Virus genome (UHGV): UHGV-0218015
Reading direction: 5' to 3' (one strand)
Length of the DNA stretch: 64,000 bases
Source of the DNA: a virus
Each line of letters starts with the position of its first letter. Position 1 is the stretch's first letter. Position numbers and translations under genes: made by a program. The notes below the pieces were generated by a model. It ran no database searches. It saw only the letters and a list, made by a program, of their open reading frames with translations, and was not told the DNA's origin. Of this stretch, positions 7,201 to 48,887 are shown in pieces.

Positions 7201-8609
7201 CGCAATAGTTTCTTTTGTGCTGTCAGCGTCGCTTGTGTTGGATACTTAGCATTAACATAATCCGTTAACTGCGGCTTCGTTTTTCCGTAAGCTAATGCTG
7301 CATCCGACGCAATACCGTTCAACTCTAACGCACGGATCGGACCCCACGTATCTGTGTGTGGGTTGTCCTTACGTGTAACGTGTTCGTGCGCAGGCGCATT
7401 ACGATACAGCTGCTCAACCAACTGATGATACTTAACTATTAACTGGTAAACATCGTTATCAACGTCAGGCTCCGGCGCACCGGGTAAAGAACGAATTTGA
7501 ACATTATCGTTTTCAGCCGCATACCAGTTCAGGTTAATGTTCGTTTTAGACTTCAACCATTTGGCTACATCCGTTTTCGAATACCCTGCCGAGAACTCAT
7601 CAGGTGGCGTATCGACGTTGAACGTATAATCCATGGTCTGTTTATTTGTTTTTACTACGATTACGTAAACGCCGTTTCCGGGTTGTCGGGTTACACTAAA
7701 ATCGATATCGTTTTTTAACTCATCGTCAGTTAAACCGTTGATTAAAGTATAATCGTAGTTTGATGAACCGCTTCCAATAGCGACAGTTAAGACCAGTGAG
7801 ATTTTGCGCTGTTTTAGCTGCAACCGTAGAATGCTTGCACCACCGTTGGCATAACAGAGCATCCAATCGATCTGCTCGTTCGGATTCAACTTTGTCATGT
7901 CCGGCAGAATAGCAGGAATTCTGTGTTTCACCGACAGGGAATAGTTGTTAAAGGTTGTCGCTTTATAACTCAGGCTATAACGGTGGCGAGCTGTGTTGTA
8001 GGTGAAACCGCCTTTATTATCGTACGCAGCATACTGCTCGGAAGTGATAACCTTGCTATTAGCACGATATTCCAAATCCAGTGTATTGCGTGCGATTGGG
8101 TTAAGACGACTCACGACTTCCCCTAACGAATCGCCTACCCCAGCAATGGCCTGCATTAGCTCCAGTTCACCTTTCCAATTCTCCCAATCGAACTGGATAT
8201 CGACCGGTGGAAAGTAAACGTCTCCGATGACGGTGTCCCACTGACACGCGGAGGGGTATTTACCTTTATTAAGCTCGCGCTCTGCGGTAATCTGCTCTTG
8301 GGTTGCTTCACCACAACCAACGGCATGGTAATCTACAGTAAAGTTCGATTTGTATTTGTCATTAACAATCCAAATCATCCCGTGAATGAGATAGGCTGTG
8401 CGCAACATACCAGTCTCGTACGGGTGTGTAATAACGTAATCGTCGCCTAAGGTCAGTATTTTGCCGCCGCTCTTGACCACCAGGGATGTGGTGAAAAAAG
8501 GGGCGTGGGCAGGTACCAACATTCGGTATTTCGTACCAATGACGGCGACCGCTTCACCGGTTATTTTATTCCCCGGTTTTTTGAAGTGTGGGTCTAAGAC
8601 GACAGCCAT
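4287..8609 (-). CDS. large tail fibre / tailspike-like virion protein (1440 aa)
   Basis: 1440-aa ORF with ATG start at 8609, 10 nt upstream of the next gene; N-terminal module shared with the 1394-aa protein; long beta-rich, Gly/Thr/Asn-rich sequence. Confidence 0.6.
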   Translation of the reverse strand: MAVVLDPHFKKPGNKITGEAVAVIGTKYRMLVPAHAPFFTTSLVVKSGGKILTLGDDYVITHPYETGMLRTAYLIHGMIWIVNDKYKSNFTVDYHAVGCGEATQEQITAERELNKGKYPSACQWDTVIGDVYFPPVDIQFDWENWKGELELMQAIAGVGDSLGEVVSRLNPIARNTLDLEYRANSKVITSEQYAAYDNKGGFTYNTARHRYSLSYKATTFNNYSLSVKHRIPAILPDMTKLNPNEQIDWMLCYANGGASILRLQLKQRKISLVLTVAIGSGSSNYDYTLINGLTDDELKNDIDFSVTRQPGNGVYVIVVKTNKQTMDYTFNVDTPPDEFSAGYSKTDVAKWLKSKTNINLNWYAAENDNVQIRSLPGAPEPDVDNDVYQLIVKYHQLVEQLYRNAPAHEHVTRKDNPHTDTWGPIRALELNGIASDAALAYGKTKPQLTDYVNAKYPTQATLTAQKKLLRTSATKTANGTIGTLPGFTSFTTEVDPVSMSKYVSPRFSESYVSNGHRYHGALRYTGTKSGFATSFNAVPANLQDIDFIVTGRKTASGNEAVGTVSLRFYQKPGTNSGKFIQLTGEISAGKVGVKLELNGFSNPTPEVQYLSQAPNPAIPDGDFTLRFQLKRTGNVFDVVITINGKTYSARVNFTNMDAALEALENSHHFKSLISNVADNVTISSGNKGNTVTIKKAPDVVDGTRLGAQFVVDPKSIKFIGQGSTEVNAGNNPVTFQAGTNQLILYPDDRGLQWRGKKLLDPTTVAPYLPGNTAGGTGLFYGTSTTTVELTGSGIKASPFVATFILPTATDTTALAAWQLTDEFGTAENLAATPALIEKLDAEFTGKLVAVKSYINDMQLTSSVTIDKITFGLGNVANTPDVNLPISTAQRAELDKYSPKVHQHPFTAFGTGNATTAKRGLIKFGLDVDDATLALDGSVVMAQTSQIEKLENAVGGVDSGARVDIIRFGKSGDDLINVTVKDKILAMLPASTYFVGGETYDVPLMSVNVTERFPNPKTLIYAGIFVDIVDNKAKYVIHDSYNQAETDTMTRVGRLVVNELSEVDVVELRNVTRLGEFHELKDHIANDNAHIQRSASRAVLGLSDLTVGAPCWASGLQAVVRGEADWRYVVRGQYKALDGVKYDQIASKWIFDAKGVSDNVHGFIHNLFPTFKNAGMRVSWETESNAKTGTVLETVLGCWKNTDGEFMRLSLLITRGYRLTDSNGEYCYAGFGLNFGSGKSVVVGFTPTKRVTPAPWSSLRPDVTFTHTRGANNAITFNASLTLAGTVYTIVVFLSATDKYVSCTAAGGTTQKIPLADRLTGFNIEPIVNDPYTPIYYGLGGLYEDEVRANIRSTADSATANKVYGTLLDYVSNYSSLNRVRVMELSGVSSDPETLNALVATEFNNNLADYAALPIPPYLNKERVMSFIDTDNKVQAVIIRD

Positions 8610-16680: not shown

Positions 16681-17166
16681 ATGAAACGTTTACATACACT
16701 GATGTTCTTTCTGGTTTTCTTGTTTATCGGTGCCACACCTACTGTAGATGCGGCCCCCGTAGACGAATTACTTACCTGCGATGGGAACGCTCGGGAAGGT
16801 CAGCCAAATGCGTGTCCAAACATCAACGACTTGTACGATACCGATAAGTCATTTAAAGGTGTTGTTGATAAAACACTAGATCCGGTGGGACTGGATGGAA
16901 TGTTCGGCTCTAAAGGTTACATGGATGGCCCTGGCGGTAACATGTATCCGGTAAATATCAACAACAAAATCTGGATTGAAAGTGGTGGTTGTAAAGCTAA
17001 CGCTTGTGGCTGGGAATATATCGTAACGCTATACAACCCACACACCAAGAAACTCGTCGGTTATTATTACAACATCGACCCCGGTTATCTGATTTGGTTC
17101 GGCGAAATCGGCGTTGCTGAATTCGGTTATCTGGTTAAGAAGTACGTAGAACAATCTAAATACTAA
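16681..17166 (+). CDS. secreted cysteine-containing protein, possible Ivy-like fold
   Basis: Sec-type leader MKRLHTLMFFLVFLFIGATPTVDA; GGCKANAC loop reminiscent of the Ivy CKPHDC loop as I recall it; 161 aa. Confidence 0.4.
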   Translation: MKRLHTLMFFLVFLFIGATPTVDAAPVDELLTCDGNAREGQPNACPNINDLYDTDKSFKGVVDKTLDPVGLDGMFGSKGYMDGPGGNMYPVNINNKIWIESGGCKANACGWEYIVTLYNPHTKKLVGYYYNIDPGYLIWFGEIGVAEFGYLVKKYVEQSKY

Positions 17167-17176
17167 GGAGTTTATC

Positions 17177-17587
17177 ATGAAAACTATCATCAACACTCTT
17201 CTCATTGCAATTGCTATTCTGTTCTCTGTTAACGTATCAGCAAAAATAACACAGTTGCCAGCTGGAATTAAGTACGTCAATAGTACCGACGATTTCTACT
17301 GTACAGAAATTGACGGCCTGTACTGTCAGGCGAAGAGCCTGTTTAAATACAAAGGTAGCAGATACGTGTTCATCGTTGAGCAGGGCGGGGCCTGGTGCTA
17401 CGACAGCCCTATGTCCGTACTCAACCTCGAAACGTGGAAAGCACAGCGCCTTGAATACAACGACAAACGTTTGTGCTCTGGCAATAACAAACCATTCTTC
17501 GAAGTCGTAGATGGTGTACCGATGGTGGGGATATTAGACACTTCGGAAAAACCTATCGTTGTAGCTATGGATAAACTTAAAATTTAA
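17177..17587 (+). CDS. secreted cysteine-containing protein
   Basis: Leader MKTIINTLLIAIAILFSVNVSA; GG..C motif (EQGGAWCYD) shared with neighbours; 136 aa. Confidence 0.5.
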   Translation: MKTIINTLLIAIAILFSVNVSAKITQLPAGIKYVNSTDDFYCTEIDGLYCQAKSLFKYKGSRYVFIVEQGGAWCYDSPMSVLNLETWKAQRLEYNDKRLCSGNNKPFFEVVDGVPMVGILDTSEKPIVVAMDKLKI

Positions 17588-17597
17588 GGAGTAACTC

Positions 17598-17987
17598 ATG
17601 CGTCTCATCTGCGCTTTAGCATTCTTCTTCTCCCTGAGTGTAGCGGCATCTACCCAGGTTAATGATTTACTGCTAACCTCAAACAACAATACCGATTATC
17701 AGTACAATCCCCCGGGGTTTGAAGTTTGTGAAGTCGGTGAAACAATCTGCCAAGAAGTCGGCGCAGACGGGCGCTATATTCTGGTAAAAGCTGATGGTGG
17801 CACAATGTGTCCCGCAGGTTATTACTTTCTACTCGATTCCGTTGCAAGAGAGGTTCTTCCTATCACCACGAAAACGTGCGACCCTACTGTTGTCTTAACT
17901 CTCGCTAAAAGCAAATCTCGCGACCGTTATCTGATCGTTATCGAAGAACGGGGCAAGATGGCTGGCGCTATCGAATTAGATCATTGA
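17598..17987 (+). CDS. secreted cysteine-containing protein
   Basis: Leader MRLICALAFFFSLSVAAS; GG..C motif (ADGGTMCPAG); 129 aa. Confidence 0.5.
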   Translation: MRLICALAFFFSLSVAASTQVNDLLLTSNNNTDYQYNPPGFEVCEVGETICQEVGADGRYILVKADGGTMCPAGYYFLLDSVAREVLPITTKTCDPTVVLTLAKSKSRDRYLIVIEERGKMAGAIELDH

Positions 17988-17995
17988 GTGTAGTC

Positions 17996-18025
17996 TTGGC
18001 CCCGGAACGTCCGGGGTCCTTTTTA
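17996..18025 (+). terminator. rho-independent terminator
   Basis: Hairpin GGCCCCGGAACGTCCGGGGTCC followed by TTTTT. Confidence 0.65.
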
Positions 18026-18054
18026 CGACATGTTTTACCTAAAGGAGTATTAAA

Positions 18055-18531
18055 ATGCAATTATCTAACGTCTATCAAGCTGCGCAATTTCATCATGACC
18101 TGTCGGCTAAACCTGAACAAATTCGCCACAACTTAACGGTGGCCTGGAAACTGCTGCGTATCGCAGAGGCCGCACGCCTTAACGATCAGTCGACGATTAT
18201 CGACACTGTGCGCACATTACACCCAGTTGACCTGGAAACAATCTGGACATTTGATTTAACCCGAATTTATCATCGCCGTTTTAATGCGGCGGTTGACGCA
18301 ATCCGGCCTTACTTTCACCACCTGCGGACAACACGCGAAAATGACACCGCGCTCGAATGGGTATTGGTACAAAGCGTATGGAGCGACTACATTTATCTCC
18401 TTTCTTTAGAGACGGGTGAATGTATCGTTGCTAACGAAGTTTTTTCAAGTAACGCAGAAATGTATCGTTCCTTCGCGACGATTAAAGGTGAAACACAGCC
18501 TATTTTATCACTCACGCACTTAGGGCTATAA
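18055..18531 (+). CDS. hypothetical protein (158 aa)
   Basis: ORF with CTAAAGGAG RBS, followed by a terminator. Confidence 0.5.
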   Translation: MQLSNVYQAAQFHHDLSAKPEQIRHNLTVAWKLLRIAEAARLNDQSTIIDTVRTLHPVDLETIWTFDLTRIYHRRFNAAVDAIRPYFHHLRTTRENDTALEWVLVQSVWSDYIYLLSLETGECIVANEVFSSNAEMYRSFATIKGETQPILSLTHLGL

Positions 18532-18533
18532 TT

Positions 18534-18566
18534 AGCCCGGCCCCGTTTATTCGGGGCTTCTTTTTT
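18534..18566 (+). terminator. rho-independent terminator
   Basis: Hairpin AGCCCGGCCCCG..CGGGGCT followed by a T7 run. Confidence 0.65.
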
Positions 18567-18587
18567 TGATCTAAAAGGAAAGACCAG

Positions 18588-19196
18588 ATGAACGAAATTA
18601 CATTAGTTCGTTTTCTTGAAGCGATGCAAAATGCAGAGCGTTTTTCGCATACGCCTTTATTCATCGACTTAATGGAAGAGGAAGTAGAGGGCTTCCTGGC
18701 GTATCCACGCTTACGGGAGTATTTTAAACGTAAAACGCCGACTGCTTACGAAAAATTGGTTTACGCACTTGAGAACAGTTCAACATTGTTAACGACGCCT
18801 TTCAAGGCGTTGGAGGCTTTAGACCCGGCTGGTACCACAAGTATCCCGCAACGTGTCGTGTTCTACTATATCGACCACGACCGAATTAAAGCCGATGTTG
18901 TTAACTGGATCTCTGAAAACGCAGTTCCAGAAACACGTACGTTTAATCTCTGTCCTGTAGAGGAAGGGTGGAAGGTCGGCAATCACTATTCTTATCCGTA
19001 CCAATCCATTAAATCACCGTTTTTATACCCGGTTTATCTGGACGACGTTACGCCAGGAAATTGCATTCCGGTAACAAACCTGATCTGTGCACTGACAATG
19101 GAAGTCTTGGCCACAAAAGCGGGACAGGTTTGGGTAGAAAACACAAAGAACATCGATTATTGGACTTCAATGGGTTATCACCCATATACCAAATAA
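18588..19196 (+). CDS. hypothetical protein (202 aa)
   Basis: ORF with AAAGGAAAG RBS; no Mre11-type phosphoesterase motifs seen. Confidence 0.5.
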   Translation: MNEITLVRFLEAMQNAERFSHTPLFIDLMEEEVEGFLAYPRLREYFKRKTPTAYEKLVYALENSSTLLTTPFKALEALDPAGTTSIPQRVVFYYIDHDRIKADVVNWISENAVPETRTFNLCPVEEGWKVGNHYSYPYQSIKSPFLYPVYLDDVTPGNCIPVTNLICALTMEVLATKAGQVWVENTKNIDYWTSMGYHPYTK

Positions 19197-19201
19197 CGTT
19201 T

Positions 19202-19240
19202 GGGAGAACCTTCGGGTTCTCCCTTTCTCTATTTTTTTTC
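19202..19240 (+). terminator. rho-independent terminator
   Basis: Hairpin GGGAGAACCTTCGGGTTCTCCC followed by a long T-run. Confidence 0.7.
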
Positions 19241-19263
19241 TTTTTACACCACACTCCGTCTTT

Positions 19264-21780
19264 ATGGAGGTGGGTATGCTAAAAGTTGAACGCATTATAC
19301 TCAAAGGTTTTACGGGGATGGGATTACATGAAATTGAAACTTTCGATTTCACTATCCAGTCTCCAACAACAATTATCCTAGGTGGGAACGGTTGCGGGAA
19401 AACCAGTCTACTGTCTGTATTCTTACCCTTAGCACCGGCTAAAACTGAATTCAGAGACGGCGGTTCTTACACGAACTACTGTTTAGTTGGTGATCAACGG
19501 TATCGATTCAAAGTTGCCCGTAAAGGTAACTCTTTGGTTTGCGATATTGAAAATCTGACCACGGGAGCAAAGATCGTCGAGCAAGGTAATGCGAAGGTCT
19601 ACAACTCTCGTGTTGAAGAAATCACGGGTATTACGAAAGAAATTAAAGAACTATTAAATGGTGAGGTTTTGTTAACCGAAGCGGGAACCGAATTACGCCG
19701 TAAATGGTTTTACCGTTTAAGTACCTCTGATCTCACATACGCGTTAGGGTTTTATCAACGTTTGCGTAAAAACCTTACCGCCTTAAATGGAGGTATTGAA
19801 ATCACCAGTCGCAAGATTGCCGAATTACGGACGCGTGTTATTGAGAACGAGGAAGAACGACAACAATTAGCAACGAGATTAAAAGGTCTGGAATCGGATT
19901 TACGTGAACTGAACCGAGAAATCGAACAGTTGCCAGGATTAAATCGTGCTGTCACGATCGAAACAATCCAAGCGTTATTAAACGGTTTGGGTCCAACCAT
20001 CGACGCAATATTACAACATCGTGGTGGGTTGCCTACTGATGAACAGATACTGGTCGCCCGACAAAATGAAGCGACAGCCCGCGAAGCCGTCGTTTCTACC
20101 GAAACAGAGGTATCGATGTTGAATAAAGATTTATCGCTATTGATGGATGAGTCAACACGACAAGACTACCTGATGCGGAACCACGAAGGTCTCAAGAACA
20201 CACTGGCACGTTTACGTGAGTTACTTACCAAGTGGGACACCGAACATCTCTTTCCAGGTTTATTTAACGATAACGTTAATTTAGACCAACTTCGTGCGTC
20301 TACCGATGCGCGTATTTGGGGACAACGGTTGGGGACAACACTGGACGCTATTCATTCAACCGAGAAACTCAATGTTTTGGAAGAACGTCTTCTGGTGATG
20401 GATCAAAAAACCGCAGGATTACGGGATAGACTCCAGCGAGTGGAGAACGTTTTACAGAATTTAAATCACGAGCGTAACCACTACTTAGAAACGGCAGAAG
20501 TGGATTGTCCGCAGTGTCGGTTTAAGTTTCGGCCAGGTGTTACGCGTTCTTTACCTGAACTCGAGTCATCGATTCGTGGTCAACAGCAGCAACGGACGGA
20601 ACTTCAAACACAGCTAGAGACCTTATTACGCGATCGTGTTGAATTAGAATCTGATGTAACTTATATGCGGCAGGTTCGTGAGATTGTACTGACGTATTCA
20701 AAGGACCCTGTATTGAGTATGTTCTTTAAGCGTTTGCAAGAACGTAACGTTTTCACAGAGTCTCGCGAGCAGTTCGGGAGTCTATGCGCAGCGTTTGACG
20801 GTGAGTTGTACTCTGCTATTGAGTACCATGAAACCCGACAACGGTTAGTGAAAGCGGAAAAAGAATGGCAGGATGTCGTGGCGGCCGTTGGTAACGTCGA
20901 TGGTGCTTTACAACAAAAGATCGCCTTCCAACAGTCGAGATTAGGTAAAGCCACAGAGATGCTCTCAATGCATCGTAGAGAGCACGAACTGGCTAACACG
21001 ACACTTACCTATCTAGTGAATTTTAAACGTGCTGTAGATGATTTCAGTGCGTTATTCGAACGGTTAGAGAGTGATGTTAAGGTTACGTTGACAAATACGG
21101 TCGTCGAGGAGCTCTTACGAGCGCGGGAAGGGAAGCTGGATGCTTTTACAACTGCACGCGAACGTTATCGTCAGATGGAAAATGAATTGAACCAGCTCAA
21201 CAGTTTGGAGCGCGAACTTACAGACTTACAAGCCCAACAGTTCAATAACAAACTGATGATTCAAGCCTTCTCGCCAGAAAAGGGTGTACTTAGAAAGTAT
21301 TTTTACAACGCTATCGTTAGAATCACAGAGTTAATGACGCGTTATATCGAACAGGTCTGGACGTACCCCATGCGTGTTATGCCCTGTGATCTCACTGACG
21401 GTGATTTGGATTATACTTTTCCTGTCCAGCTAAAAACGCACCCTGAGCCTGTTCCTGACGTGCGTAAAGGGTCTAAGGCACAGCGTGCTATATTTAATCT
21501 GATGTTCAGACTGACTGCGTACAAAGCGCTGAAGTTGCATCAGTTTCCGTTGCTTTTGGATGAGCCTTCGGAAGGCATGGACGAGGAGCACCGTAATAAC
21601 CTGGTCGGCTTTATTAAAACGTTAGCAAACTCGGGAGAATTTTCACAACTGTTGGTAGTCTCCCACGAAGCCGAGGTTCATTCTAAACTTAATGAAGCAT
21701 CGTACTGTGTCATCGAACCGGAAGGAGTGACATTGCCTGCGGTGTATAACGAAGGAGTAAAAATTGTTTATGCAAACTGA
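19264..21780 (+). CDS. Rad50/SbcC-like ATPase with zinc hook
   Basis: N-terminal P-loop GGNGCGKTS; long predicted coiled coils; central CPQC (zinc-hook-type CxxC); C-terminal Walker B / H-loop LLLDEPSEGMD...VVSHEAE; 838 aa. Confidence 0.7.
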   Translation: MEVGMLKVERIILKGFTGMGLHEIETFDFTIQSPTTIILGGNGCGKTSLLSVFLPLAPAKTEFRDGGSYTNYCLVGDQRYRFKVARKGNSLVCDIENLTTGAKIVEQGNAKVYNSRVEEITGITKEIKELLNGEVLLTEAGTELRRKWFYRLSTSDLTYALGFYQRLRKNLTALNGGIEITSRKIAELRTRVIENEEERQQLATRLKGLESDLRELNREIEQLPGLNRAVTIETIQALLNGLGPTIDAILQHRGGLPTDEQILVARQNEATAREAVVSTETEVSMLNKDLSLLMDESTRQDYLMRNHEGLKNTLARLRELLTKWDTEHLFPGLFNDNVNLDQLRASTDARIWGQRLGTTLDAIHSTEKLNVLEERLLVMDQKTAGLRDRLQRVENVLQNLNHERNHYLETAEVDCPQCRFKFRPGVTRSLPELESSIRGQQQQRTELQTQLETLLRDRVELESDVTYMRQVREIVLTYSKDPVLSMFFKRLQERNVFTESREQFGSLCAAFDGELYSAIEYHETRQRLVKAEKEWQDVVAAVGNVDGALQQKIAFQQSRLGKATEMLSMHRREHELANTTLTYLVNFKRAVDDFSALFERLESDVKVTLTNTVVEELLRAREGKLDAFTTARERYRQMENELNQLNSLERELTDLQAQQFNNKLMIQAFSPEKGVLRKYFYNAIVRITELMTRYIEQVWTYPMRVMPCDLTDGDLDYTFPVQLKTHPEPVPDVRKGSKAQRAIFNLMFRLTAYKALKLHQFPLLLDEPSEGMDEEHRNNLVGFIKTLANSGEFSQLLVVSHEAEVHSKLNEASYCVIEPEGVTLPAVYNEGVKIVYAN

Positions 21781-21949
21781 TTGGTTCCGTCGTTTTATGG
21801 ACGCGGCGGGGTTTGGTTTCATGTCCATTCTAGCGGTTCTTTATGTCATGTTTTGCGTGGTGATGATTTTATGGGTAGTTTCATCTTATCTGATTAAACT
21901 ATCTTGGGGTTCAATTTGGCGTCAACGTGAATGCGAATGGCGGAATTAG
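21764..21949 (+). CDS. small membrane protein (61 aa)
   Basis: Hydrophobic segment FGFMSILAVLYVMFCVVMILWVVSSYLI; start overlaps the end of the Rad50-like gene. Confidence 0.4.
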   Translation: MFMQTDWFRRFMDAAGFGFMSILAVLYVMFCVVMILWVVSSYLIKLSWGSIWRQRECEWRN

Positions 21950-21960
21950 GAGAAGGGAAT

Positions 21961-22059
21961 ATGGTTGAAGGGGTTCTGTTAACACTTGGTGCGATGTGGT
22001 TAATCGGTAAAGGTTTAAACTTGCTGGTTAAACAACACAGATGGGCGTTTGAAGATTAA
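21961..22059 (+). CDS. small membrane peptide (32 aa)
   Basis: ATG preceded by AGGAGAAGGG; hydrophobic VEGVLLTLGAMWLIGKGL. Confidence 0.3.
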   Translation: MVEGVLLTLGAMWLIGKGLNLLVKQHRWAFED

Positions 22060-22116
22060 ACACCCAAATAATCCGGAAAATACCCTCCGACGTGAGGGTA
22101 TTACTAGGAGCAGAAA

Positions 22117-22245
22117 ATGACCTCGATAAACACTACGAATGTAGCGATATCCGCATTATACGATGCGGAACTTTCATGGGGTGGATTGATAATCACCACG
22201 GCCGTATTAGCCGCTGCGGCATTCGTCATCGCGCGTTGGTTTTAA
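22117..22245 (+). CDS. small membrane peptide (42 aa)
   Basis: ATG preceded by an AGGAG RBS; hydrophobic LIITTAVLAAAAFVIARWF. Confidence 0.3.
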   Translation: MTSINTTNVAISALYDAELSWGGLIITTAVLAAAAFVIARWF

Positions 22246-22276
22246 TTTTACTTTTTTGCGTCTCTAAGGTTTGCAA

Positions 22277-22720
22277 ATGGAAATTTATTTGTTGAACGCA
22301 TCTTCTAAAGTCGGCGAACGACAAGCTGCCGATTTACTCAAACTACACTACCGTTACTTAGACCACCAGGCTACATTACTAAAAATCAAAGCGTCGGTAC
22401 CGATGTTAAAAGCTCGGCAACTGATCGAAGGTAACTGCATAGTTCTGGTGTATCAGGATGATGTAGCGGTAGGATACTGTAGTTATCGGAATCGTAACGG
22501 TTCACTTAAGATACGTTCGGTATACGTGCTCCCAGACTATCGTCAGCGGGGTGTAATGAAAGAGATTTTCAAAGCAATTGCCGCTGATGAAGTTTTCGGT
22601 GAAATTGTTACTGGCATGTATGCGAAATGTAAAGAAGCAAAAGAGTATTTCATCCGACGCGGCTATCAGGCGATTTACTCACACGATCGTGAGTGGGTCG
22701 ATTTTAGCAAAACATTCTAA
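22277..22720 (+). CDS. GNAT-family N-acetyltransferase
   Basis: GNAT motif-A-like segment VGYCSYRNRNGSLKIRSVYVLPDYRQRGVMKEIFKAI (V-x-P-x-Y-R-x-x-G fits the acetyl-CoA-binding loop pattern); about 148 aa from the ATG at 22277. Confidence 0.55.
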   Translation: MEIYLLNASSKVGERQAADLLKLHYRYLDHQATLLKIKASVPMLKARQLIEGNCIVLVYQDDVAVGYCSYRNRNGSLKIRSVYVLPDYRQRGVMKEIFKAIAADEVFGEIVTGMYAKCKEAKEYFIRRGYQAIYSHDREWVDFSKTF

Positions 22721-22787
22721 AAACAATAAAAGCTCTCTTGGCGTACCTCACTATGAGTGTGAGAAATTTACGTCAGGAGAGCTAATT

Positions 22788-23033
22788 ATGTTAAAATCGT
22801 ACGGAGTGGGTGGTTTGGATACGAGTATTTGTTGGAAAGAATACGAACGTGCAAAAGCGTTCTTACAACATCCCAATGTAGGGACAATAGGTAAGGTCTG
22901 TTTCGGCAAACCTTCATTGACGGCTTGTATCCAAGGGGCTTTAGGGACGTTGCCACCCGAAACACATTTCGAGCCTGAGGAGAATACGAATGTTCACAGA
23001 GAACCCATCAATTTACGGCATACCGTTGAATGA
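22788..23033 (+). CDS. hypothetical small protein (81 aa)
   Basis: ATG with AGGAGAG RBS; the longer track ORF 22578..23033 overlaps the GNAT gene in another frame, so the shorter start is preferred. Confidence 0.4.
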   Translation: MLKSYGVGGLDTSICWKEYERAKAFLQHPNVGTIGKVCFGKPSLTACIQGALGTLPPETHFEPEENTNVHREPINLRHTVE

Positions 23034-23358
23034 AATTGACATTCTACAAATTTGTTATCAGTGCGACGACTTTGGTAAGACGCAGGTAACAGAGCTAGTT
23101 AAGCTTTTAGGTTACTTACCTGAAATCGAGCTACCTTTTGTTAAACCCAGCTTGGTTCGTCGTGCATCGTGTCGCGAAGCTTATTTGCTGTGGAAACACA
23201 ATATTTCAGTAGAGAAGGTCTGGGACCGCATGAACGATCATCAGTTCCGTGAACAGGTTGTGCACACGCTCAACTTGGCACTGACTATGCAACGCCTGGG
23301 CTTACAACACGAAGGTTTAGAAGCGGCGGTCAAACAATGGATTACAAAAAATCGCTAA
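22990..23358 (+). CDS. hypothetical protein (122 aa)
   Basis: ORF lying between the GNAT and macrodomain genes. Confidence 0.45.
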   Translation: MFTENPSIYGIPLNEIDILQICYQCDDFGKTQVTELVKLLGYLPEIELPFVKPSLVRRASCREAYLLWKHNISVEKVWDRMNDHQFREQVVHTLNLALTMQRLGLQHEGLEAAVKQWITKNR

Positions 23359-23445
23359 TGGGTAAAACATATATCGCTATACTTGTCGAGCTATCAATCG
23401 GCGGTACACGTTTTAATACTACACATCAACTATGGCCGATTCGTT

Positions 23446-23943
23446 ATGTTAACGGTACGTAAAGAATCTAAAATTGGTAACGATCTTTTTAATGCGCCCG
23501 AAGACTATAAAGTCGTTACCATTAACTGTGTAGGAGCAATGGGTCGCGGTATTGCACTGGCGTGCCGTGAACGCTACTCCAACCTTTATCAAGATTACCG
23601 TAAGCGGTGTCGCGAAGACGAAATTAAGATTGGAAGTGTTTACGTTTACCCGGATGAAAAGTGCATCTTGCTCCCCACGAAAACACACTGGCGTTTAAAG
23701 TCCCAGGTTTCTTATGTTACTGCGGGCATTACCGCATTAGCAGATTGTGTTGAGGAACTGGATACCAGCGTTGCTATCCCTCCACTGGGAATGGCAAATG
23801 GGTGGTTAGATTCCTGGGAAAGACAAGAAATCTTCTTGTGGCTTTACAAAAAACTTGAACCGAGGAGGCAACACTACACGTTATACTTACCCGATAAGCT
23901 GTACCGAGAAGCAGAGTCATTAATTCCAAACTCTTTTAAATAG
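23446..23943 (+). CDS. macrodomain protein of the TARG1/OARD1/DarG type (putative ADP-ribosyl hydrolase)
   Basis: GNDLFNAPEDYKVVTINCVGAMGRGIA matches from memory the human TARG1 segment [27 protein letters not shown]; C-terminal IPPLGMANGWLDSWE matches TARG1 MPRIGCGLDRLQWE. Track ORF begins at a TTG at 23383; the first ATG is at 23446. Confidence 0.7.
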   Translation: MLTVRKESKIGNDLFNAPEDYKVVTINCVGAMGRGIALACRERYSNLYQDYRKRCREDEIKIGSVYVYPDEKCILLPTKTHWRLKSQVSYVTAGITALADCVEELDTSVAIPPLGMANGWLDSWERQEIFLWLYKKLEPRRQHYTLYLPDKLYREAESLIPNSFK

Positions 23944-24016
23944 ATATCATCATTAGGGCACACAACAAAGGAGTATTAGCTGTCCGCGCCGTCATTTCGT
24001 CTTACGGAATACGGAA

Positions 24017-24742
24017 ATGTATAAATCCAACTGGAGAAACAAAATGTTTCGTATCTTCTTTCTTTTACTGGTAACACTTTTCGCGTTTAACGCACAGGCG
24101 TCAACGTCAACGCCACAAACTAAACATCAGCGTGAGTTTACACAAATCCAACATCGGTTCGAAAAAGTCAGTCCGTTAATTGTGGAAATCTCACGAAAGC
24201 AAGGCGTTGATCCTAAGCTGATGATTACGCTGATTTATCGTGAATCGCGTTTTGATCCCAAGGCTTACAACAAAAGCTCACGGGCACACAGCCTGGTACA
24301 GATGCTTCCAAGTACCAAGCGTAGTCTGCTAAAGCTTTATGGAAAAGAATTAGGTCTTAGTCAGAACGCCGATTTGTATAATCCGCGTAACGCTGTTTTG
24401 CTGGCTACCGCGTATGTTAAACATCTTGAGAAGGGGTTAACCAAACGACTCAAACGCAAGCCCACCATGGCTGAAGTTGCGTTAGCTTACCACTGGGGTG
24501 AAAGTGGTGCTCACACGCGAATCAAAAGCAAATCTCGAGCAGCACAACGAGAAATGGCAGGCTTTATGAAAGATGCCTCGTTCTATAGCGCGAAAATCGA
24601 TGTGTCTGTTGTTGTGGGCTCGGCCCCACGTCAGCTTGCGTTTGCGAAGAAAACATCACGTCAGATTCAATTGGCGGAAGTTAGTAAAATTTGGGATACG
24701 ATAAACACGAGTTTTCCAATCAATAGAGGAGTTACCCTTTGA
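24017..24742 (+). CDS. secreted lytic transglycosylase (SLT-domain; possible signal-peptide endolysin)
   Basis: Sec leader MFRIFFLLLVTLFAFNAQA; SLT family-1 motifs ...YRESRFDPKAY...AHSLVQMLPST...; 241 aa. Confidence 0.7.
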   Translation: MYKSNWRNKMFRIFFLLLVTLFAFNAQASTSTPQTKHQREFTQIQHRFEKVSPLIVEISRKQGVDPKLMITLIYRESRFDPKAYNKSSRAHSLVQMLPSTKRSLLKLYGKELGLSQNADLYNPRNAVLLATAYVKHLEKGLTKRLKRKPTMAEVALAYHWGESGAHTRIKSKSRAAQREMAGFMKDASFYSAKIDVSVVVGSAPRQLAFAKKTSRQIQLAEVSKIWDTINTSFPINRGVTL

Positions 24743-30514: not shown

Positions 30515-31249
30515 ATGACCTACCCAAAAATTATCACCCCGTACACACCGACGTTGGTTATTGGTGCCGATGCAGAAACCAAATCGTTACGTCCCGACGC
30601 TTATCTGTTGAGTGCAGGTTTAGTGGCGTTTGACGTCCCTACCTTGAAAATGGTTGGTTCCTCATACATCCGTATCGATCCTAACGATCCTAAAGCAAAA
30701 GCTATTTTCCACGAAGACCCACAAACGGTGGGATGGTGGGAAGGTAAAGGCGAACCTGAATACGCACCGTCTCGTGAAGCCTATGCGGAAGCATGGGGTG
30801 GAACAACAGCATTGCCTGATGCACTGTGGGCGATGCAAAAATGGCTCGGGGAGATCACCGCAAAACATGAGTTTGTTATTACCATGCGCGGTCCCGACTT
30901 CGATGCGCCGATTTTCATGAACGCCTTCGCACAGTGCGATATTCCGCCCGGGAAGTTCCGTAAATTTAGTGCGTTGGATAGCGATCGCACCGCAGAGCGT
31001 TTAGCTTTTGCGTTTGGTTTCGAACCCGACTTAACGGTAGAGCAAGTTTATTGGACGCGCGGTAAGCCCGCTTTTGAGCACCACGCAATGTGGGATGCAG
31101 CAAAAGAAGCCTACACCACGGCACGTATTTATCACCTCGCTTTGGTCACCCGCCAATACGGGTTTGAACGCGCCAAAGCCTGTCACGAAGAACTGAAAAC
31201 TGGCGAGTATGTTGCGCCGCAGATTCGTGATCAATTAACCAGGGATTAA
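30515..31249 (+). CDS. DEDDh-type 3'-5' exonuclease (DnaQ-like)
   Basis: Exo I-like LVIGADAETKS (D-x-E), central GPDFDAPIF, C-terminal HHAMWDAAKEAY (H-x4-D); 244 aa. Confidence 0.6.
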   Translation: MTYPKIITPYTPTLVIGADAETKSLRPDAYLLSAGLVAFDVPTLKMVGSSYIRIDPNDPKAKAIFHEDPQTVGWWEGKGEPEYAPSREAYAEAWGGTTALPDALWAMQKWLGEITAKHEFVITMRGPDFDAPIFMNAFAQCDIPPGKFRKFSALDSDRTAERLAFAFGFEPDLTVEQVYWTRGKPAFEHHAMWDAAKEAYTTARIYHLALVTRQYGFERAKACHEELKTGEYVAPQIRDQLTRD

Positions 31250-31251
31250 GA

Positions 31252-32772
31252 ATGAAGAACGTTGATGTTGCAGTAATTTACACGGACGGTAGCCATTTGA
31301 CCTCCCCGCTCGGTACAGGGGCGGGGATTCATGGATACTTATTTAATCGTGAAGCGATTGAGGATGGTCGGGTTTACCGCCATCCCACTATTCCCGAGGG
31401 GATTACGACGTCAGGATACCGCCAGATAAACAAGGATGAAAAACTTCCGCCTTTACCAGAAACCGTGGAGTTTATTGACGGCGTTGTTCCTGTACCAAAA
31501 ATGTCACACTCCGACGTTGCAGAACTCGTGGCTTTCCTGACCGTCTTCGAACACGCCCCCTTCGTTGCCAAAAACTACGTTATCTATATCGACGCATCTT
31601 ACGTTGTCAACACGTATAACGACTGGATTGATGGTTGGGCAGCACGTGGTTGGCGTCGTGCGGACGGTACACCTATTGCGAATCTGGAATTAATCCAACG
31701 GATGTGGGAGGTTAAACAGCGCTTAAAGAAAGAAGGGAAAGGTGTTCGTGTCCTTAAAATTAAAGGTCACTCTGGACGTTATGGAAACGAACGCGCAGAC
31801 GAGTTAGCGCGGAAAGGCTCAATTATCTCTGCCCGAGGGGAGGGCTTAGACTATACACCGTATTGGTCAAAAGACGAACTGCCTGAGGAAGAACAGCAAC
31901 CGGAAGTTGTTGGTGAGGGTGTCAATTTGTCCGCTTTCCCCGATATCTGTGTTACGAAGTTCTGTTACCCGATGGTGAACGAACCCCATCCCACTGTTAC
32001 AGTTAACGGTAATAAACTTTATTACATGTTCGGTGGAAACCACGCAAAACAGAAGGACGATATCGTCTTCGTTGGTAAGTACATTCCAGATGCACAATTC
32101 TGCGTAATGTTTACCAAAGAACCATGGGATAACGTATACGAGTTGGTAAATACCCATTCTGCGAAAGCGTGGGAAGGGGTGCCCCGTTTACGTCAATTTG
32201 ATCCAATCGCCGTTGTTTTTAACTTATTCGTAAAGCGCAAGAAGTTCGCAGAAGCCGCTGCTAACGGCATTCCTATCGATCGGATGCATTTTAGTGAAGA
32301 CAAAAACCTGTGGATGTTTGAAGATCTTTCGATTACACGAATTCTTCGTCCTGCGCTATTATCTTATCGTTGTATTGCGATTCGTGATGAGCTTGCAGGT
32401 TGGTTACGCGATGCCATGGAAGGGAAAAACTCAGTAGTGTTGAACGACATTACTGACCTGCTTTACGATGAGAAAGGTAAGCCGAAGAAAGATTTTTATC
32501 GTAACGTAGATAAAGGTTTTGACGTAACCATCCAGATCCCTGGTAGTAAAAACAAGGTTAAAGCTATCCTTACTCGAGGTATCGACATACCGACGCGTAC
32601 GGAAATCAACCGTATCAAAGAACCGGAAGGGCGGTTCTACGTGGCTGTACGTCGTCCAGAACGGCAGTATATCGAATACGCGTTGGTTTATATCGGGGAA
32701 AAATATCATGGTTTGTGGTGCGGCTATTATTCAAACAAACGAATATTGACGGATAAGGAGCTTGAATGCTGA
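31252..32772 (+). CDS. RNase HI domain fused to a ~300-aa C-terminal domain of unknown function
   Basis: N-terminal RNase H type 1 motifs VAVIYTDGSH, ELVAFLTVFEHA, YIDASYVVN, WIDGWAARGW, IKGHSGRYGNERADELARKG; start 3 nt after the exonuclease stop; 506 aa. Confidence 0.7.
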   Translation: MKNVDVAVIYTDGSHLTSPLGTGAGIHGYLFNREAIEDGRVYRHPTIPEGITTSGYRQINKDEKLPPLPETVEFIDGVVPVPKMSHSDVAELVAFLTVFEHAPFVAKNYVIYIDASYVVNTYNDWIDGWAARGWRRADGTPIANLELIQRMWEVKQRLKKEGKGVRVLKIKGHSGRYGNERADELARKGSIISARGEGLDYTPYWSKDELPEEEQQPEVVGEGVNLSAFPDICVTKFCYPMVNEPHPTVTVNGNKLYYMFGGNHAKQKDDIVFVGKYIPDAQFCVMFTKEPWDNVYELVNTHSAKAWEGVPRLRQFDPIAVVFNLFVKRKKFAEAAANGIPIDRMHFSEDKNLWMFEDLSITRILRPALLSYRCIAIRDELAGWLRDAMEGKNSVVLNDITDLLYDEKGKPKKDFYRNVDKGFDVTIQIPGSKNKVKAILTRGIDIPTRTEINRIKEPEGRFYVAVRRPERQYIEYALVYIGEKYHGLWCGYYSNKRILTDKELEC

Positions 32773-38896: not shown

Positions 38897-40393
38897 ATGG
38901 CAGGCCCAACTAAGCAAGTTATCGGTGAAGTAATTCGTCCACGTTTTAACGTTTACACCATCATGGATCATGCCTTAGGTAACTACGAAAAAGGTGAAGA
39001 TGGTTTGTACTACCTTAACGGTGGTTTTGCCCACATCATGGGTTTCGCAGGTCGCGGTAACACCTTTAAATCTACCTTGTTAGATTTCTGTATCTTCCAA
39101 ATCCTGCAACGTTATAAAGCAGAGTGGGGTTCTAAGTACGATACAGAAGTGTCCGCCGCCCTCGATCGTTTAGAAACTGGGTACATCTCTGCCATGAACG
39201 CCAACGGTATCGACGACGGAACGTCCGTATTGGAACTCATCCACGAAGGTCGTTATAACCTGGTCGGTTCTGATGTAATGCCTGGGGAACAGTATTACAG
39301 TGATTATATTCGTGATGAAGTTGAAAAACGCTTCAAGCAGTATATGTCTGGTAAAACCCGCGTAACGCCGTTCCCCGATCCGGTTCGTCGTAAGTTAAAA
39401 GAAATCCTGGACCCCTGGCTCTATTCTATCGACTCTTTGTCAGAGTGGCATTCCAGTTCGCTGGAAGACAAACACGCAAAAACGGATATCGGTGATTCTG
39501 ATCAGAACATCCTGAACGCCCACGATGCACTGCAAAAATCGAACATGATGAGCCGCTGGCCGTCTGCGTTTGCACGCGGTGGTTTCTATATGGGTTTCGT
39601 GGCACAGATGGCCGATGACTCTGGGAAAGCGATGGCAGGTGGTCGTCAGGCACAAAAAGCAAATGCGAAAATTCTTGACGATGCCAACGACGATTTAAAA
39701 TTCGCAGGTATTCCTCGCCGTCAGCTTAGCTTTTTAACAAACTCTTTTATCGTCGCGACGAAATCAGGGGAGTTGAAGAAAGACCAGAGCTATAACGCAC
39801 AGACCGGTGTTAACGAAGAACTTTATCCGACGTCACGTTCTAAAGCGATGAATGCTTCGGTAAACGACTTGAAGATTATCACCTTTACTCAGTATCGTGC
39901 GAAGGGTGGTCACACCGGTGTGAAATTCCAGATGATCTTCTCTCAGGAAATGGGTCTGTTATATCACCTGAGCCTGTGGCACTATTTAAGTGACACGCTG
40001 AAGAAATCAGACTTTGGTTTTACGTCAAGCGGAAGCGGCGGCTCCATCAAAGAACTGGACATTTTACCTGGTGTGAAATTCCAACGCACGACAATCCGTG
40101 ATATGATTTCTGATAACGCACGCTTACGTCGCGCTTTAGAAATCACGGCGGCAATCGCGTATATGCAAAACAACTACCACCGTCTTGAAATGAAGTATCA
40201 TCTCAGCATGGGTGAGATTTACAAACTGATTGACGAGAAGTGGGACTGGAATGAAATTCTGGATAACACGGTAGAATACTGGATGTTTAAAGACCAGGAA
40301 ACCAAAGGTGGTAAACGTACACTGACTGCACGTACTATTCTGGGTATGGCTGTCGATGGACTAGAACCGAAGTTCCTGACGAAAAAGAAATAA
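38897..40393 (+). CDS. hypothetical protein (498 aa) with P-loop-like GFAGRGNTFKST segment
   Basis: Glycine-rich loop followed by FKST loosely recalls UvsX/RecA-type P-loops, but no clear Walker B was found; function not assigned. Confidence 0.45.
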   Translation: MAGPTKQVIGEVIRPRFNVYTIMDHALGNYEKGEDGLYYLNGGFAHIMGFAGRGNTFKSTLLDFCIFQILQRYKAEWGSKYDTEVSAALDRLETGYISAMNANGIDDGTSVLELIHEGRYNLVGSDVMPGEQYYSDYIRDEVEKRFKQYMSGKTRVTPFPDPVRRKLKEILDPWLYSIDSLSEWHSSSLEDKHAKTDIGDSDQNILNAHDALQKSNMMSRWPSAFARGGFYMGFVAQMADDSGKAMAGGRQAQKANAKILDDANDDLKFAGIPRRQLSFLTNSFIVATKSGELKKDQSYNAQTGVNEELYPTSRSKAMNASVNDLKIITFTQYRAKGGHTGVKFQMIFSQEMGLLYHLSLWHYLSDTLKKSDFGFTSSGSGGSIKELDILPGVKFQRTTIRDMISDNARLRRALEITAAIAYMQNNYHRLEMKYHLSMGEIYKLIDEKWDWNEILDNTVEYWMFKDQETKGGKRTLTARTILGMAVDGLEPKFLTKKK

Positions 40394-48570: not shown

Positions 48571-48887
48571 TGACTGTGAACGACAATATAAAGAAAAAGA
48601 TTGACGAAATCATAAGCGTCAGTTTAGATAGGATCGAATTAATTCCCGAAACTAAGGAAATCAAATACTACGTTCCTGCAGACGAACTATTTCCAGGTCT
48701 TCTTAGAATCTCACCAAAAAAGGTTGAAGAGGCTAAACGGCAATTCGAAGTTCGTGGCCTTAAGGTTGAGATTGTTAACAAAAAACATTTCCATGTAACG
48801 TATAGCCAGGAAAACATTATTTTTAGTCCTGAGCAAGCGCAACGTAATTTAGACATTTTAACGAAACGTATGGAGAATAACAAATGA
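48570..48887 (+). CDS. hypothetical protein (105 aa)
   Basis: Complete ORF overlapping its neighbours at both ends. Confidence 0.45.

What the first reader, a model, noticed from the sequence alone, without database searches (positions are those of the whole stretch)
19264..21780. Rad50/SbcC-like ATPase with a zinc hook but no adjacent Mre11/SbcD nuclease
The 838-aa protein has the full Rad50 architecture: P-loop, coiled coils, a central CPQC hook and a C-terminal Walker B / H-loop. Neither flanking gene shows Mre11-type phosphoesterase motifs; the downstream neighbours are three tiny membrane peptides. The nuclease partner may be elsewhere in the genome, or the ATPase may work with a non-canonical partner.
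Basis: partly seen in the sequence, partly recalled or inferred. Interest (0 to 1): 0.4.

Follow-up and report, generated by a model that had tools for sequence, protein, structure and literature searches.

The report
Jumbo-phage SbcC; SbcD partner encoded far away
This is the ordinary Rad50/SbcC ATPase of a giant nucleus-forming-type phage, and its Mre11/SbcD nuclease partner is not missing but is encoded about 90–130 kb away, a split arrangement published for this phage group in 2016.

Summary
Window 19264–21780 (+) encodes a Rad50/SbcC-type ATPase: Walker A at residue 40, two ~250-aa helical arms, an invariant CPQC hook at 415–418, Walker B at 763 and an H-loop at 800. No Mre11/SbcD gene lies beside it or anywhere else in the 64-kb window.

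The explanation is ordinary. The window comes from a jumbo phage of the SPN3US/Asesino (phiKZ-like) lineage. A near-identical IMG/VR genome (97.3% nt identity, collinear with both window ends) carries an intact SbcD gene 132 kb from SbcC, or 89 kb on a circular map. That protein keeps all the metal-ligand residues. Its predicted fold matches E. coli SbcD best, and the next eleven hits are also Mre11/SbcD.

In ten related genomes the two genes are always at least 88 kb apart. Each gene was found in 290 phage records with nearly the same genus breakdown.

Thomas et al. 2016 (PMC5105663) already described this split for SPN3US and phiKZ, showed that SbcC (gp186) is essential, and noted the small membrane protein downstream.

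Verdict: already known, low interest. The "non-canonical partner" option is unnecessary.

The parts
19264..21780 (+). SbcC/Rad50-type ABC ATPase with a CPQC zinc hook. The ORF is 838 aa, and the likely true start is the ATG at 19276, giving 834 aa. It is the ortholog of SPN3US gp186, Asesino gp207 and phiKZ orf165.
   Evidence: phrog_77 (SbcC-like) E = 6.2e-91. 70% aa identity to Asesino gp207 and 58% to SPN3US gp186. Invariant motifs. AF2 model and Foldseek top hit Rad50, 7zr1_D, E = 6.8e-19. Family profile against PDB gives Rad50 at E = 2.1e-6.
20506..20517 (+). Codons for the CPQC hook motif (residues 415-418), at the apex between the two helical arms.
   Evidence: It is the only CxxC in the protein. 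C415, P416 and C418 are invariant in 26 homologs. It lies in the non-helical turn 410-429 between helices 369-409 and 430-478 of the model.
21764..21949 (+). Small 61-aa ORF with one strongly hydrophobic segment. It has a TTG start with a GGAG Shine-Dalgarno, and it overlaps the 3' end of SbcC by 17 nt. It is the positional equivalent of SPN3US gp187 and Asesino gp208.
   Evidence: Hydropathy and upstream context, plus tblastn conservation at the same position in L004, L010, L005, L006, L007, L014 and L002. phrog_16515 E = 2.6e-4. Thomas et al. 2016 note the equivalent 63-aa TM protein. Any functional link to SbcC is inferred only.
21931..22059 (+). Small 42-aa ORF with a moderately hydrophobic segment, conserved in position.
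   Evidence: phrog_13448 E = 8.7e-9. tblastn hits at the same position in relatives out to SPN3US.
22117..22245 (+). Small 42-aa ORF with a C-terminal hydrophobic segment, conserved only in the closer relatives.
   Evidence: 93-98% identity in L004 and L010, 67% in L005 and L006, marginal in SPN3US. No PHROG hit. An overlapping alternative ORF at 22092-22295 in another frame is less well conserved in L005 and L006.
38897..40393 (+). UvsX-like recombinase, the likely downstream user of ends resected by SbcCD. This is context only and not part of the complex.
   Evidence: phrog_97 (UvsX-like recombinase) E = 1.1e-55. The functional link is inferred by analogy with T4 gp46/47 and UvsX.

Best explanation
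The gene encodes the SbcC (Rad50) subunit of a canonical phage SbcCD / Mre11-Rad50 DNA-end-processing complex in a jumbo phage of the SPN3US/Asesino (phiKZ-like, Chimalliviridae-type) lineage.

Shown here: the protein has a bipartite ABC ATPase head, two ~250-aa helical arms and an invariant CPxC hook. The same phage species encodes an intact Mre11/SbcD-fold nuclease with every metal-ligand residue conserved. That gene lies about 132 kb away on the linear contig, or about 89 kb on a circular map, which is roughly 45 kb beyond the window's 3' end.

Inferred from the family: two SbcC chains pair through a zinc ion held by the CPQC hooks, and their heads bind an SbcD dimer. ATP binding and hydrolysis then drive endo- and exonucleolytic processing of DNA ends and hairpins. 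This would produce substrates for the phage's UvsX-like recombinase and for recombination-dependent replication, as T4 gp46/gp47 do.

The scattering of functionally linked genes is a known property of phiKZ-like genomes and does not indicate a missing or unusual partner.
For: Identity of the ATPase:
- phrog_77 E = 6.2e-91.
- Invariant Walker A, Walker B, H-loop and CPxC across 26 homologs.
- AF2 architecture.
- Foldseek top hit is Rad50 of the C. thermophilum MRN complex, E = 6.8e-19.
- The family profile hits P. furiosus Rad50 at E = 2.1e-6.

Lineage:
- 290 jumbo-phage records hold a homolog. The best are Asesino (70%) and SPN3US (58%), with conserved local gene order.

Partner gene:
- SPN3US SbcD lies at 21,020-22,168 and its SbcC at 168,900-171,410.
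- Asesino SbcD lies at 21,690-22,910 and its SbcC at 170,896-173,406.
- The IMG/VR contig 3300045988_113438 (220,786 bp) is 97.3% nt-identical to the window over 8.5 kb. It matches both window ends collinearly, at about 131.6 and 194.8 kb. It carries SbcC at about 150.9 kb and an intact SbcD ORF at 19.1-20.3 kb.
- A second contig (94% nt identity) shows the same arrangement.
- In 10 genomes the separation is 88.5-148 kb.
- The SbcD query also hits 290 phage records, with nearly the same genus breakdown as the SbcC query.

The partner is a real Mre11/SbcD:
- phrog_100 E = 1.3e-59.
- D22, H24, G57, H101, D102, H180, H212 and H214 are invariant in 32 homologs.
- All 16 PDB hits of the family profile are Mre11/SbcD, the best being T. 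maritima Mre11 at E = 4.9e-10 over positions 12-306.
- AF2 model pLDDT 91.4. Foldseek top hit is E. coli SbcD 7yzo_A, E = 3.3e-14, TM 0.58, and the top 12 hits are all Mre11/SbcD.

Literature:
- Thomas et al. 2016, PMC5105663: SPN3US gp186 is an essential SbcC, gp27 is SbcD, and the genes are 'drastically separated' in SPN3US, phiKZ and relatives.
- Iyer et al. 2021, PMC7824862: SbcC and SbcD are practically universal in jumbo phages.
- phiKZ orf165 has no transposon insertions (bioRxiv 10.1101/2025.11.23.690004), and antisense knockdown of it has an effect (PMC12571901).
Against: - The window's own genome was not recovered. The exact protein is not on record and the best contig is 97.3% identical, not 100%. 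The presence of SbcD in this exact genome is therefore inferred from sister genomes.
- No physical SbcC-SbcD interaction or nuclease activity has been shown for any phage of this lineage, as far as the texts read here go.
- Similarity to cellular SbcC and SbcD is weak at the sequence level. Pfam SMC_N scores 34.6 bits, below its 40-bit cut-off. Pfam finds no Metallophos domain in the SPN3US SbcD. hhalign against the single E. coli sequences gives only local matches, with probabilities of 41-59%.
- The signature motif is atypical: GSKAQ instead of LSGGQ/E.
Confidence: 0.88

Rival explanations
1. The ATPase works with a non-canonical partner instead of, or in addition to, SbcD. The candidate would be the small membrane protein whose gene overlaps its 3' end, or one of the unknown-function neighbours. 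Such a partner could, for example, tether or regulate the complex.
For: The 61-aa hydrophobic ORF overlaps SbcC by 17 nt, has its own Shine-Dalgarno, and sits at the same position in every relative examined. Thomas et al. 2016 raised the analogy with the T4 gp46/47 membrane association. The neighbours at 18588-19196 and 18055-18531 belong to conserved families of unknown function, phrog_9964 and phrog_8115.
Against: A bona fide SbcD with an intact active site co-occurs with SbcC in essentially every genome of the lineage, so no substitute nuclease is needed. The flanking proteins have no phosphoesterase motifs and no HMM, Pfam or PDB signal. The small ORFs are poorly conserved in sequence (25-32% identity between the window and Asesino or SPN3US). 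Gene overlap is common in compact phage genomes.
Confidence: 0.07
2. The protein is not an SbcC/Rad50 but another SMC-class ATPase that merely shares the head-and-coiled-coil layout. It might be condensin-like, or related to Lamassu LmuB, Wadjet JetC or RloC, and it might act in genome organisation or inter-phage conflict.
For: Many GenBank records name it a 'putative SMC domain-containing protein'. The best Pfam hit is SMC_N, below threshold. Foldseek also returns Smc5/6, condensin, MukB, JetC and LmuB at E values of 1e-16 to 1e-8.
Against: The top structural hits are Rad50. The only significant PDB sequence hits to the C-terminal lobe are Rad50, followed by generic ABC ATPases. phrog_77 is the SbcC family. 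The apex is a short CPxC turn rather than a globular hinge domain. The protein also co-occurs strictly with an SbcD nuclease.
Confidence: 0.03
3. In this particular genome the SbcD gene has been lost or inactivated, which would leave an orphan SbcC.
For: The window's exact genome was not found, and only 64 kb of it was available.
Against: The two closest genomes (97.3% and 94% nt identity) both have intact SbcD ORFs. All ten relatives do as well. SbcC is essential in SPN3US and SbcD is inferred to be essential there too.
Confidence: 0.02

Closest known systems
SPN3US gp186 (SbcC) with gp27 (SbcD), and their orthologs Asesino gp207/gp44 and phiKZ orf165
   Same: Orthologous protein: 58-70% aa identity over the full length and the same length of about 834-836 aa. 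The local gene order is the same: small TM ORFs, acetyltransferase, macro-domain protein and transglycosylase downstream. The distant placement of SbcD is also the same. SbcC is essential in SPN3US.
   Different: Only sequence divergence. The window belongs to a species not deposited in the phage collection searched (no megablast match), but IMG/VR holds genomes at 94-97% nt identity.
T4 gp46/gp47 (phage Rad50/Mre11)
   Same: A phage-encoded Mre11-Rad50 complex that is essential for recombination-dependent replication. It has a CPxC hook and a split ABC head, and small ORFs are associated with the genes (as summarised).
   Different: The T4 genes are clustered, separated only by two small ORFs, whereas here they are about 90-130 kb apart. 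T4 gp46 is much smaller (63.6 kDa against about 96 kDa), with an inter-domain region about 300 residues shorter. No BLASTP-level similarity is detectable.
E. coli SbcCD (operon sbcDC) and archaeal/eukaryotic Mre11-Rad50
   Same: The fold is the same for both subunits (Foldseek hits 7yzo_A for SbcD and 7zr1_D for SbcC). The metal-ligand motifs, Walker A and B, H-loop and CPxC hook are all shared.
   Different: In E. coli the genes overlap within one operon. E. coli SbcC is 1048 aa. Sequence similarity is only local. Motif III in the phage SbcD reads G-T-P-S-H-D rather than GNHD/E, and the SbcC signature motif is GSKAQ.

Membership tests
Rad50/SbcC ATPase | Bipartite ABC ATPase head: an N-terminal Walker A, and a C-terminal Walker B, D-loop and H-loop | tested here: met
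   GGNGCGKT at residue 40, LLLDE at 763, D773, SHE at 800. All are invariant in 26 homologs. The head lobes are modelled at 1-150 and 676-838.
Rad50/SbcC ATPase | ABC signature motif (LSGGQ/E-like) and Q-loop | tested here: inconclusive
   A signature-like GSKAQ at 736 has S737, A739 and Q740 invariant, but it departs from the consensus. I did not locate a Q-loop glutamine with confidence. Thomas et al. 2016 report a signature motif in SPN3US gp186.
Rad50/SbcC ATPase | Long antiparallel coiled coil inserted between the two head halves | tested here: met
   The AF2 model has helical arms at 158-409 (252 aa) and 430-668 (239 aa), of near-equal length. This is a prediction, not an experiment.
Rad50/SbcC ATPase | CxxC zinc hook at the coiled-coil apex, rather than an SMC hinge domain | tested here: met
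   The single CPQC at 415-418 lies in the turn between the arms. C415, P416 and C418 are invariant down to 37% identity. Zinc binding itself cannot be tested here.
Rad50/SbcC ATPase | Significant similarity to curated family models or solved Rad50 structures | tested here: met
   phrog_77 E = 6.2e-91. Profile against PDB gives Rad50 at E = 2.1e-6. Foldseek gives Rad50 at E = 6.8e-19. Caveat: Pfam SMC_N scores 34.6 bits, below its 40-bit gathering score.
Rad50/SbcC ATPase | A cognate Mre11/SbcD nuclease encoded in the same genome | tested here: met
   Not in the window. Present and intact on the 97.3%-identical sister contig and in all 10 relatives checked. Strictly, this was shown for sister genomes and not for the window's own genome.
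Rad50/SbcC ATPase | Physical complex with Mre11/SbcD and ATP-dependent nuclease activity | not testable with these tools
   No multimer prediction or biochemistry was available. The SbcD model has C-terminal helices at 356-381 that could form the Rad50-binding domain. That is inference only.
Mre11/SbcD nuclease (the distant partner, sister-genome locus L021 / P0047) | Calcineurin-like phosphoesterase motifs I-V with metal-ligand Asp and His residues | tested here: met
   D22 and H24 (motif I), G57 and D58 (II), H101 and D102 (III, within GTPSHD), H180 (IV), H212 and H214 (V). These are invariant or nearly invariant in 32 homologs down to about 25% identity.
Mre11/SbcD nuclease (the distant partner, sister-genome locus L021 / P0047) | Mre11-type fold (nuclease plus capping domain) rather than a generic metallophosphatase | tested here: met
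   AF2 pLDDT 91.4, pTM 0.83. The top 12 Foldseek hits are all Mre11/SbcD, and generic phosphoesterases appear only from rank 13, at E >= 2.9e-5. The profile against PDB aligns over positions 12-306 of T. maritima Mre11. Pfam alone fails.
SMC proper (condensin, MukB, Smc5/6) | Globular hinge dimerisation domain at the coiled-coil apex | tested here: not met
   The apex is a 20-residue turn (410-429) that carries the CPQC. No hinge domain appears in the model or in the Pfam hits.

The most novel reading that the evidence does not exclude
The small hydrophobic protein whose gene overlaps the 3' end of SbcC (21764-21949) keeps that position from this phage out to SPN3US. It could be a lineage-specific accessory subunit of the SbcCD complex that localises or regulates it in nucleus-forming phages, for example by holding it at a membrane or at the nuclear shell. 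In that case the wide separation of SbcC and SbcD might reflect separate expression control of the ATPase and the nuclease. Thomas et al. 2016 already raised this idea as a question, and nothing here tests it beyond positional conservation.
Probability: 0.08. Interest if true: 0.4.

Novelty: already known. Interest (0 to 1): 0.1.

Why it matters
It matters little as a discovery. The apparent orphan Rad50 is an effect of viewing 64 kb of a genome of roughly 220 kb whose functionally linked genes are known to be scattered.

It is useful as a caution for annotation. In phiKZ-like jumbo phages, gene neighbourhood does not predict partnership, and the lineage's SbcD is so divergent that Pfam misses it. 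Public records also name these genes inconsistently: 'SMC domain protein', 'SbcCD subunit D' applied to the SbcC gene, and 'LpxH' applied to an SbcD homolog.

The complex itself is biologically important. It is essential in SPN3US and belongs to the core genome of phiKZ-like phages. It remains uncharacterised biochemically, as does the question of where it acts relative to the phage nucleus.

Tried and rejected
1. Megablast of window 17000-24000 against the deposited phage collection gave no match. The lineage had to be found through protein searches instead.
2. A Pfam scan of 20 mid-sized window ORFs for a Metallophos domain found none. I then discarded this as a negative test, because Pfam also fails on the genuine SPN3US SbcD. 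I replaced it with tblastn and with family HMMs run with positive controls.
3. An exact-sequence look-up of the 838-aa protein found nothing on record. One possible cause is that gene callers start at Met5, and the genome is also not identical to any deposited one. I did not repeat the look-up with the 834-aa form.
4. hhalign of the family alignments against the single E. coli SbcC and SbcD sequences gave only short local matches with probabilities of 41-59%. These were too weak to rely on and were superseded by the profile-versus-PDB searches and the fold searches.
5. The shallow 11-sequence SbcD profile against PDB gave only marginal Mre11 hits (E = 0.19-0.6). The deeper 32-sequence profile resolved this.
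6. The weak Pfam PIN_12 hit at residues 587-687 of SbcC (E = 0.007, 17 bits against a 32-bit cut-off) was dismissed. It lies inside the coiled-coil arm.
7. A cryptic phosphoesterase in the flanking 202-aa protein: no motifs, no PDB relatives and no HMM signal.
Full report
**1. What is at the coordinates**

Window 19264–21780 (+) is an uninterrupted ORF of 838 aa. It carries:
- Walker A, GGNGCGKT, at residue 40
- one CxxC, CPQC, at 415–418
- Walker B, LLLDE, at 763
- an H-loop, SHE, at 800
- a signature-like GSKAQ at 736

In an alignment of 26 homologs reaching down to 37% identity, the Walker A and B residues, D773, S800, H801 and C415, P416, C418 are all invariant.

An AlphaFold2 model built on that alignment has mean pLDDT 82.9. 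It shows a β-rich N-terminal lobe (1–150) and a helical arm at 158–409. A short non-helical turn at 410–429 holds the CPQC. A return arm follows at 430–668, then a C-terminal lobe at 676–838. The two arms are 252 and 239 residues long, as expected for an antiparallel coiled coil with the hook at its apex.

Foldseek against the PDB puts Rad50 of the C. thermophilum MRN complex first (E = 6.8e-19). SMC-class proteins follow: Smc5/6, condensin, MukB, JetC and LmuB. The family profile hits P. furiosus Rad50 at E = 2.1e-6. PHROGs assigns the protein to phrog_77, the SbcC-like subunit, at E = 6.2e-91. Pfam's SMC_N hit is below its gathering score, 34.6 against 40 bits.

The sequence ATGGAGGTGGGTATG at the 5' end places a GGAGGTG Shine-Dalgarno in front of the second ATG, at 19276. 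The closest database homologs are 834 aa. The real protein is therefore most likely 834 aa.

**2. The neighbours**

The upstream genes at 18588–19196 and 18055–18531 belong to PHROG families of unknown function. They have no Pfam hits. The 202-aa upstream protein (18588–19196), the only one searched against the PDB, has no relatives there. None of the flanking proteins has a phosphoesterase motif.

Downstream lie three small ORFs: 21764–21949 (61 aa), 21931–22059 (42 aa) and 22117–22245 (42 aa). Each has one hydrophobic segment. The first starts at a TTG preceded by GGAG and overlaps the end of SbcC by 17 nt. All three are conserved in position among relatives.

**3. What the window is**

The window has no near-identical DNA in the deposited phage collection. 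At protein level, the ATPase matches 290 jumbo-phage records. The best are Erwinia phage Asesino (70%) and Salmonella phage SPN3US (58%). Local gene order is conserved in both: SMC-domain protein, tiny ORFs, acetyltransferase, macro-domain protein, transglycosylase.

Other window genes fit this lineage: giant virion proteins, a UvsX-like recombinase, an RNase H-domain protein and thymidylate synthase. Asesino is a nucleus-forming Chimalliviridae phage (PMC11724907, abstract).

**4. Where the nuclease is**

SPN3US has an annotated SbcD-like gene at 21,020–22,168, while its SbcC is at 168,900–171,410. In Asesino the coordinates are 21,690–22,910 and 170,896–173,406.

The window itself does not contain this gene. 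tblastn with the SPN3US SbcD gives nothing better than E = 1.1. HMMs built from the SbcD family find nothing among all 636 stop-to-stop segments of the window (best E = 0.65). The same HMM scores the sister-genome SbcD at 1.9e-158 and E. coli SbcD at 3.6e-11.

My earlier Pfam screen of window ORFs is not valid as a negative test, because Pfam also misses the domain in the genuine SPN3US SbcD.

**5. The same phage species has the partner gene**

IMG/VR holds a 220,786-bp contig, 3300045988_113438, with these properties:
- Its SbcC is 99% identical in protein to the window's.
- It is 97.3% identical in DNA to the window over 8.5 kb.
- 20-mers from both ends of the window match it at about 131.8 and 194.7 kb. 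The window therefore maps collinearly to about 131.6–194.8 kb of the contig.
- It carries an intact SbcD ORF at 19.1–20.3 kb.

On that contig SbcD lies 132 kb from SbcC, or 89 kb on a circular map. That is roughly 45 kb beyond the window's 3' end.

A second contig (225,000 bp, 94% nt identity) has SbcC at 53.7 kb and SbcD at 143.1 kb. In ten genomes where both genes were located, the separation is 88.5–148 kb. The SbcD query also hits 290 phage records, with nearly the same genus distribution as the SbcC query.

**6. Is the distant gene a real Mre11/SbcD?**

Yes.
- It matches phrog_100 (SbcD-like) at E = 1.3e-59.
- In 32 homologs down to about 25% identity, the metal-ligand positions are invariant or nearly so: D22 and H24, G57 and D58, H101 and D102, H180, H212 and H214.
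- All 16 PDB hits of the profile are Mre11/SbcD. The best is T. maritima Mre11, E = 4.9e-10, aligned over positions 12–306.
- An AlphaFold2 model has pLDDT 91.4 and pTM 0.83. It matches E. coli SbcD best (7yzo_A, E = 3.3e-14, TM 0.58). The first twelve hits are all Mre11/SbcD, and generic phosphoesterases appear only after them.

The model was made for P0047, the cluster representative, which is 93% identical to the sister-genome protein.

**7. Mechanism**

Shown: both subunits are encoded by the species. Both keep their catalytic motifs. The ATPase has the hook-and-arm architecture.

Inferred from the Mre11–Rad50 family: SbcC dimerises through zinc bound by the CPQC hooks and through ATP-engaged heads. 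It binds an SbcD dimer, and ATP hydrolysis drives cleavage and resection of DNA ends and hairpins. By analogy with T4 gp46/47, the product would feed the phage's UvsX-like recombinase (window 38897–40393) for recombination-dependent replication.

Functional support from the literature:
- SPN3US gp186 is essential, shown with amber mutants (PMC5105663).
- phiKZ orf165 tolerates no transposon insertions (bioRxiv 10.1101/2025.11.23.690004).
- phiKZ orf165 is listed as a core-genome 'SbcC-like nuclease' with a knockdown effect (PMC12571901).

**8. Comparison with what is known**

Thomas et al. [quoted passage not shown] They describe the ABC motifs and the long inter-domain region of gp186. They also point out the small transmembrane protein encoded immediately downstream, comparing it with the T4 gp46/47 membrane association. 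Iyer et al. 2021 call SbcC and SbcD practically universal in jumbo phages.

The finding is therefore a re-observation of a published feature in a new, closely related genome.

**9. Rivals**

- A non-canonical partner is unnecessary, given the strict co-occurrence with an intact SbcD. The flanking genes show no nuclease signal. The only residual idea is that the overlapping 61-aa membrane protein is an accessory factor, which remains untested.
- An SMC-proper or defence-type ATPase is disfavoured by the hook in place of a hinge, by Rad50 being the top structural hit, and by the SbcD co-occurrence.
- Loss of SbcD in this exact genome cannot be excluded formally, because the genome was not recovered. 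It is unlikely, given the two sister genomes.

**10. Verdict**

The feature is already known, and the interest is low.

Noticed in passing
window 19264-19278: The annotated ATG at 19264 is probably not the start. A GGAGGTG Shine-Dalgarno lies between it and a second ATG at 19276, and the closest database homologs are 834 aa.
   Followed up: partly
window 38897-40393 (+): UvsX-like recombinase (phrog_97, E = 1.1e-55), about 17 kb downstream of SbcC. It is the likely consumer of ends resected by SbcCD.
   Followed up: no
window 48884-49918 (+): The thymidylate synthase is 344 aa, yet it covers the 266-position Pfam profile end to end. It therefore carries roughly 80 residues of insertions relative to the family model.
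   Followed up: no
window 92-4276 (-) and 4287-8609 (-): Two adjacent giant virion structural proteins (1394 and 1440 aa) cross-hit the same PHROG families (8078, 7557, 7449, 2163). This suggests a tandem paralog pair.
   Followed up: no
window 55319-62485 (-) and 24017-24742 (+): A 2388-aa protein (phrog_3201, named 'tail fiber protein' in PHROGs) carries a transglycosylase domain at residues 1986-2181. A separate 241-aa SLT transglycosylase near SbcC hits the same PHROG families.
   Followed up: no
window 31252-32772 (+) and 30515-31249 (+): A 506-aa protein has an RNase H domain at residues 81-190. The phiKZ core genome includes an RNase HI-domain protein, orf155. Next to it is a protein with a 3'-5' exoribonuclease Rv2179c-like domain.
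   Followed up: no
window 22271-22720, 23383-23943: A GNAT acetyltransferase and a macro-domain (Appr-1-p processing) protein lie downstream of SbcC. The same order is found in Asesino and SPN3US.
   Followed up: partly
L003 21020-22168 (SPN3US SbcD); public records MT679221.1, OQ383623.1; protein P0052: There are annotation pitfalls in this lineage. Pfam finds no Metallophos domain in the SbcD. Two phage records label the SbcC gene 'nuclease SbcCD subunit D'. A JGI SbcD homolog is named LpxH.
   Followed up: partly
OR413581.1 (Salmonella phage SPLA3) 32682-33918: The SbcD match in this record comes in two pieces that span 1237 nt, against 1146 nt in its relatives. This could be an insertion of about 90 nt or a local duplication within the gene.
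   Followed up: no
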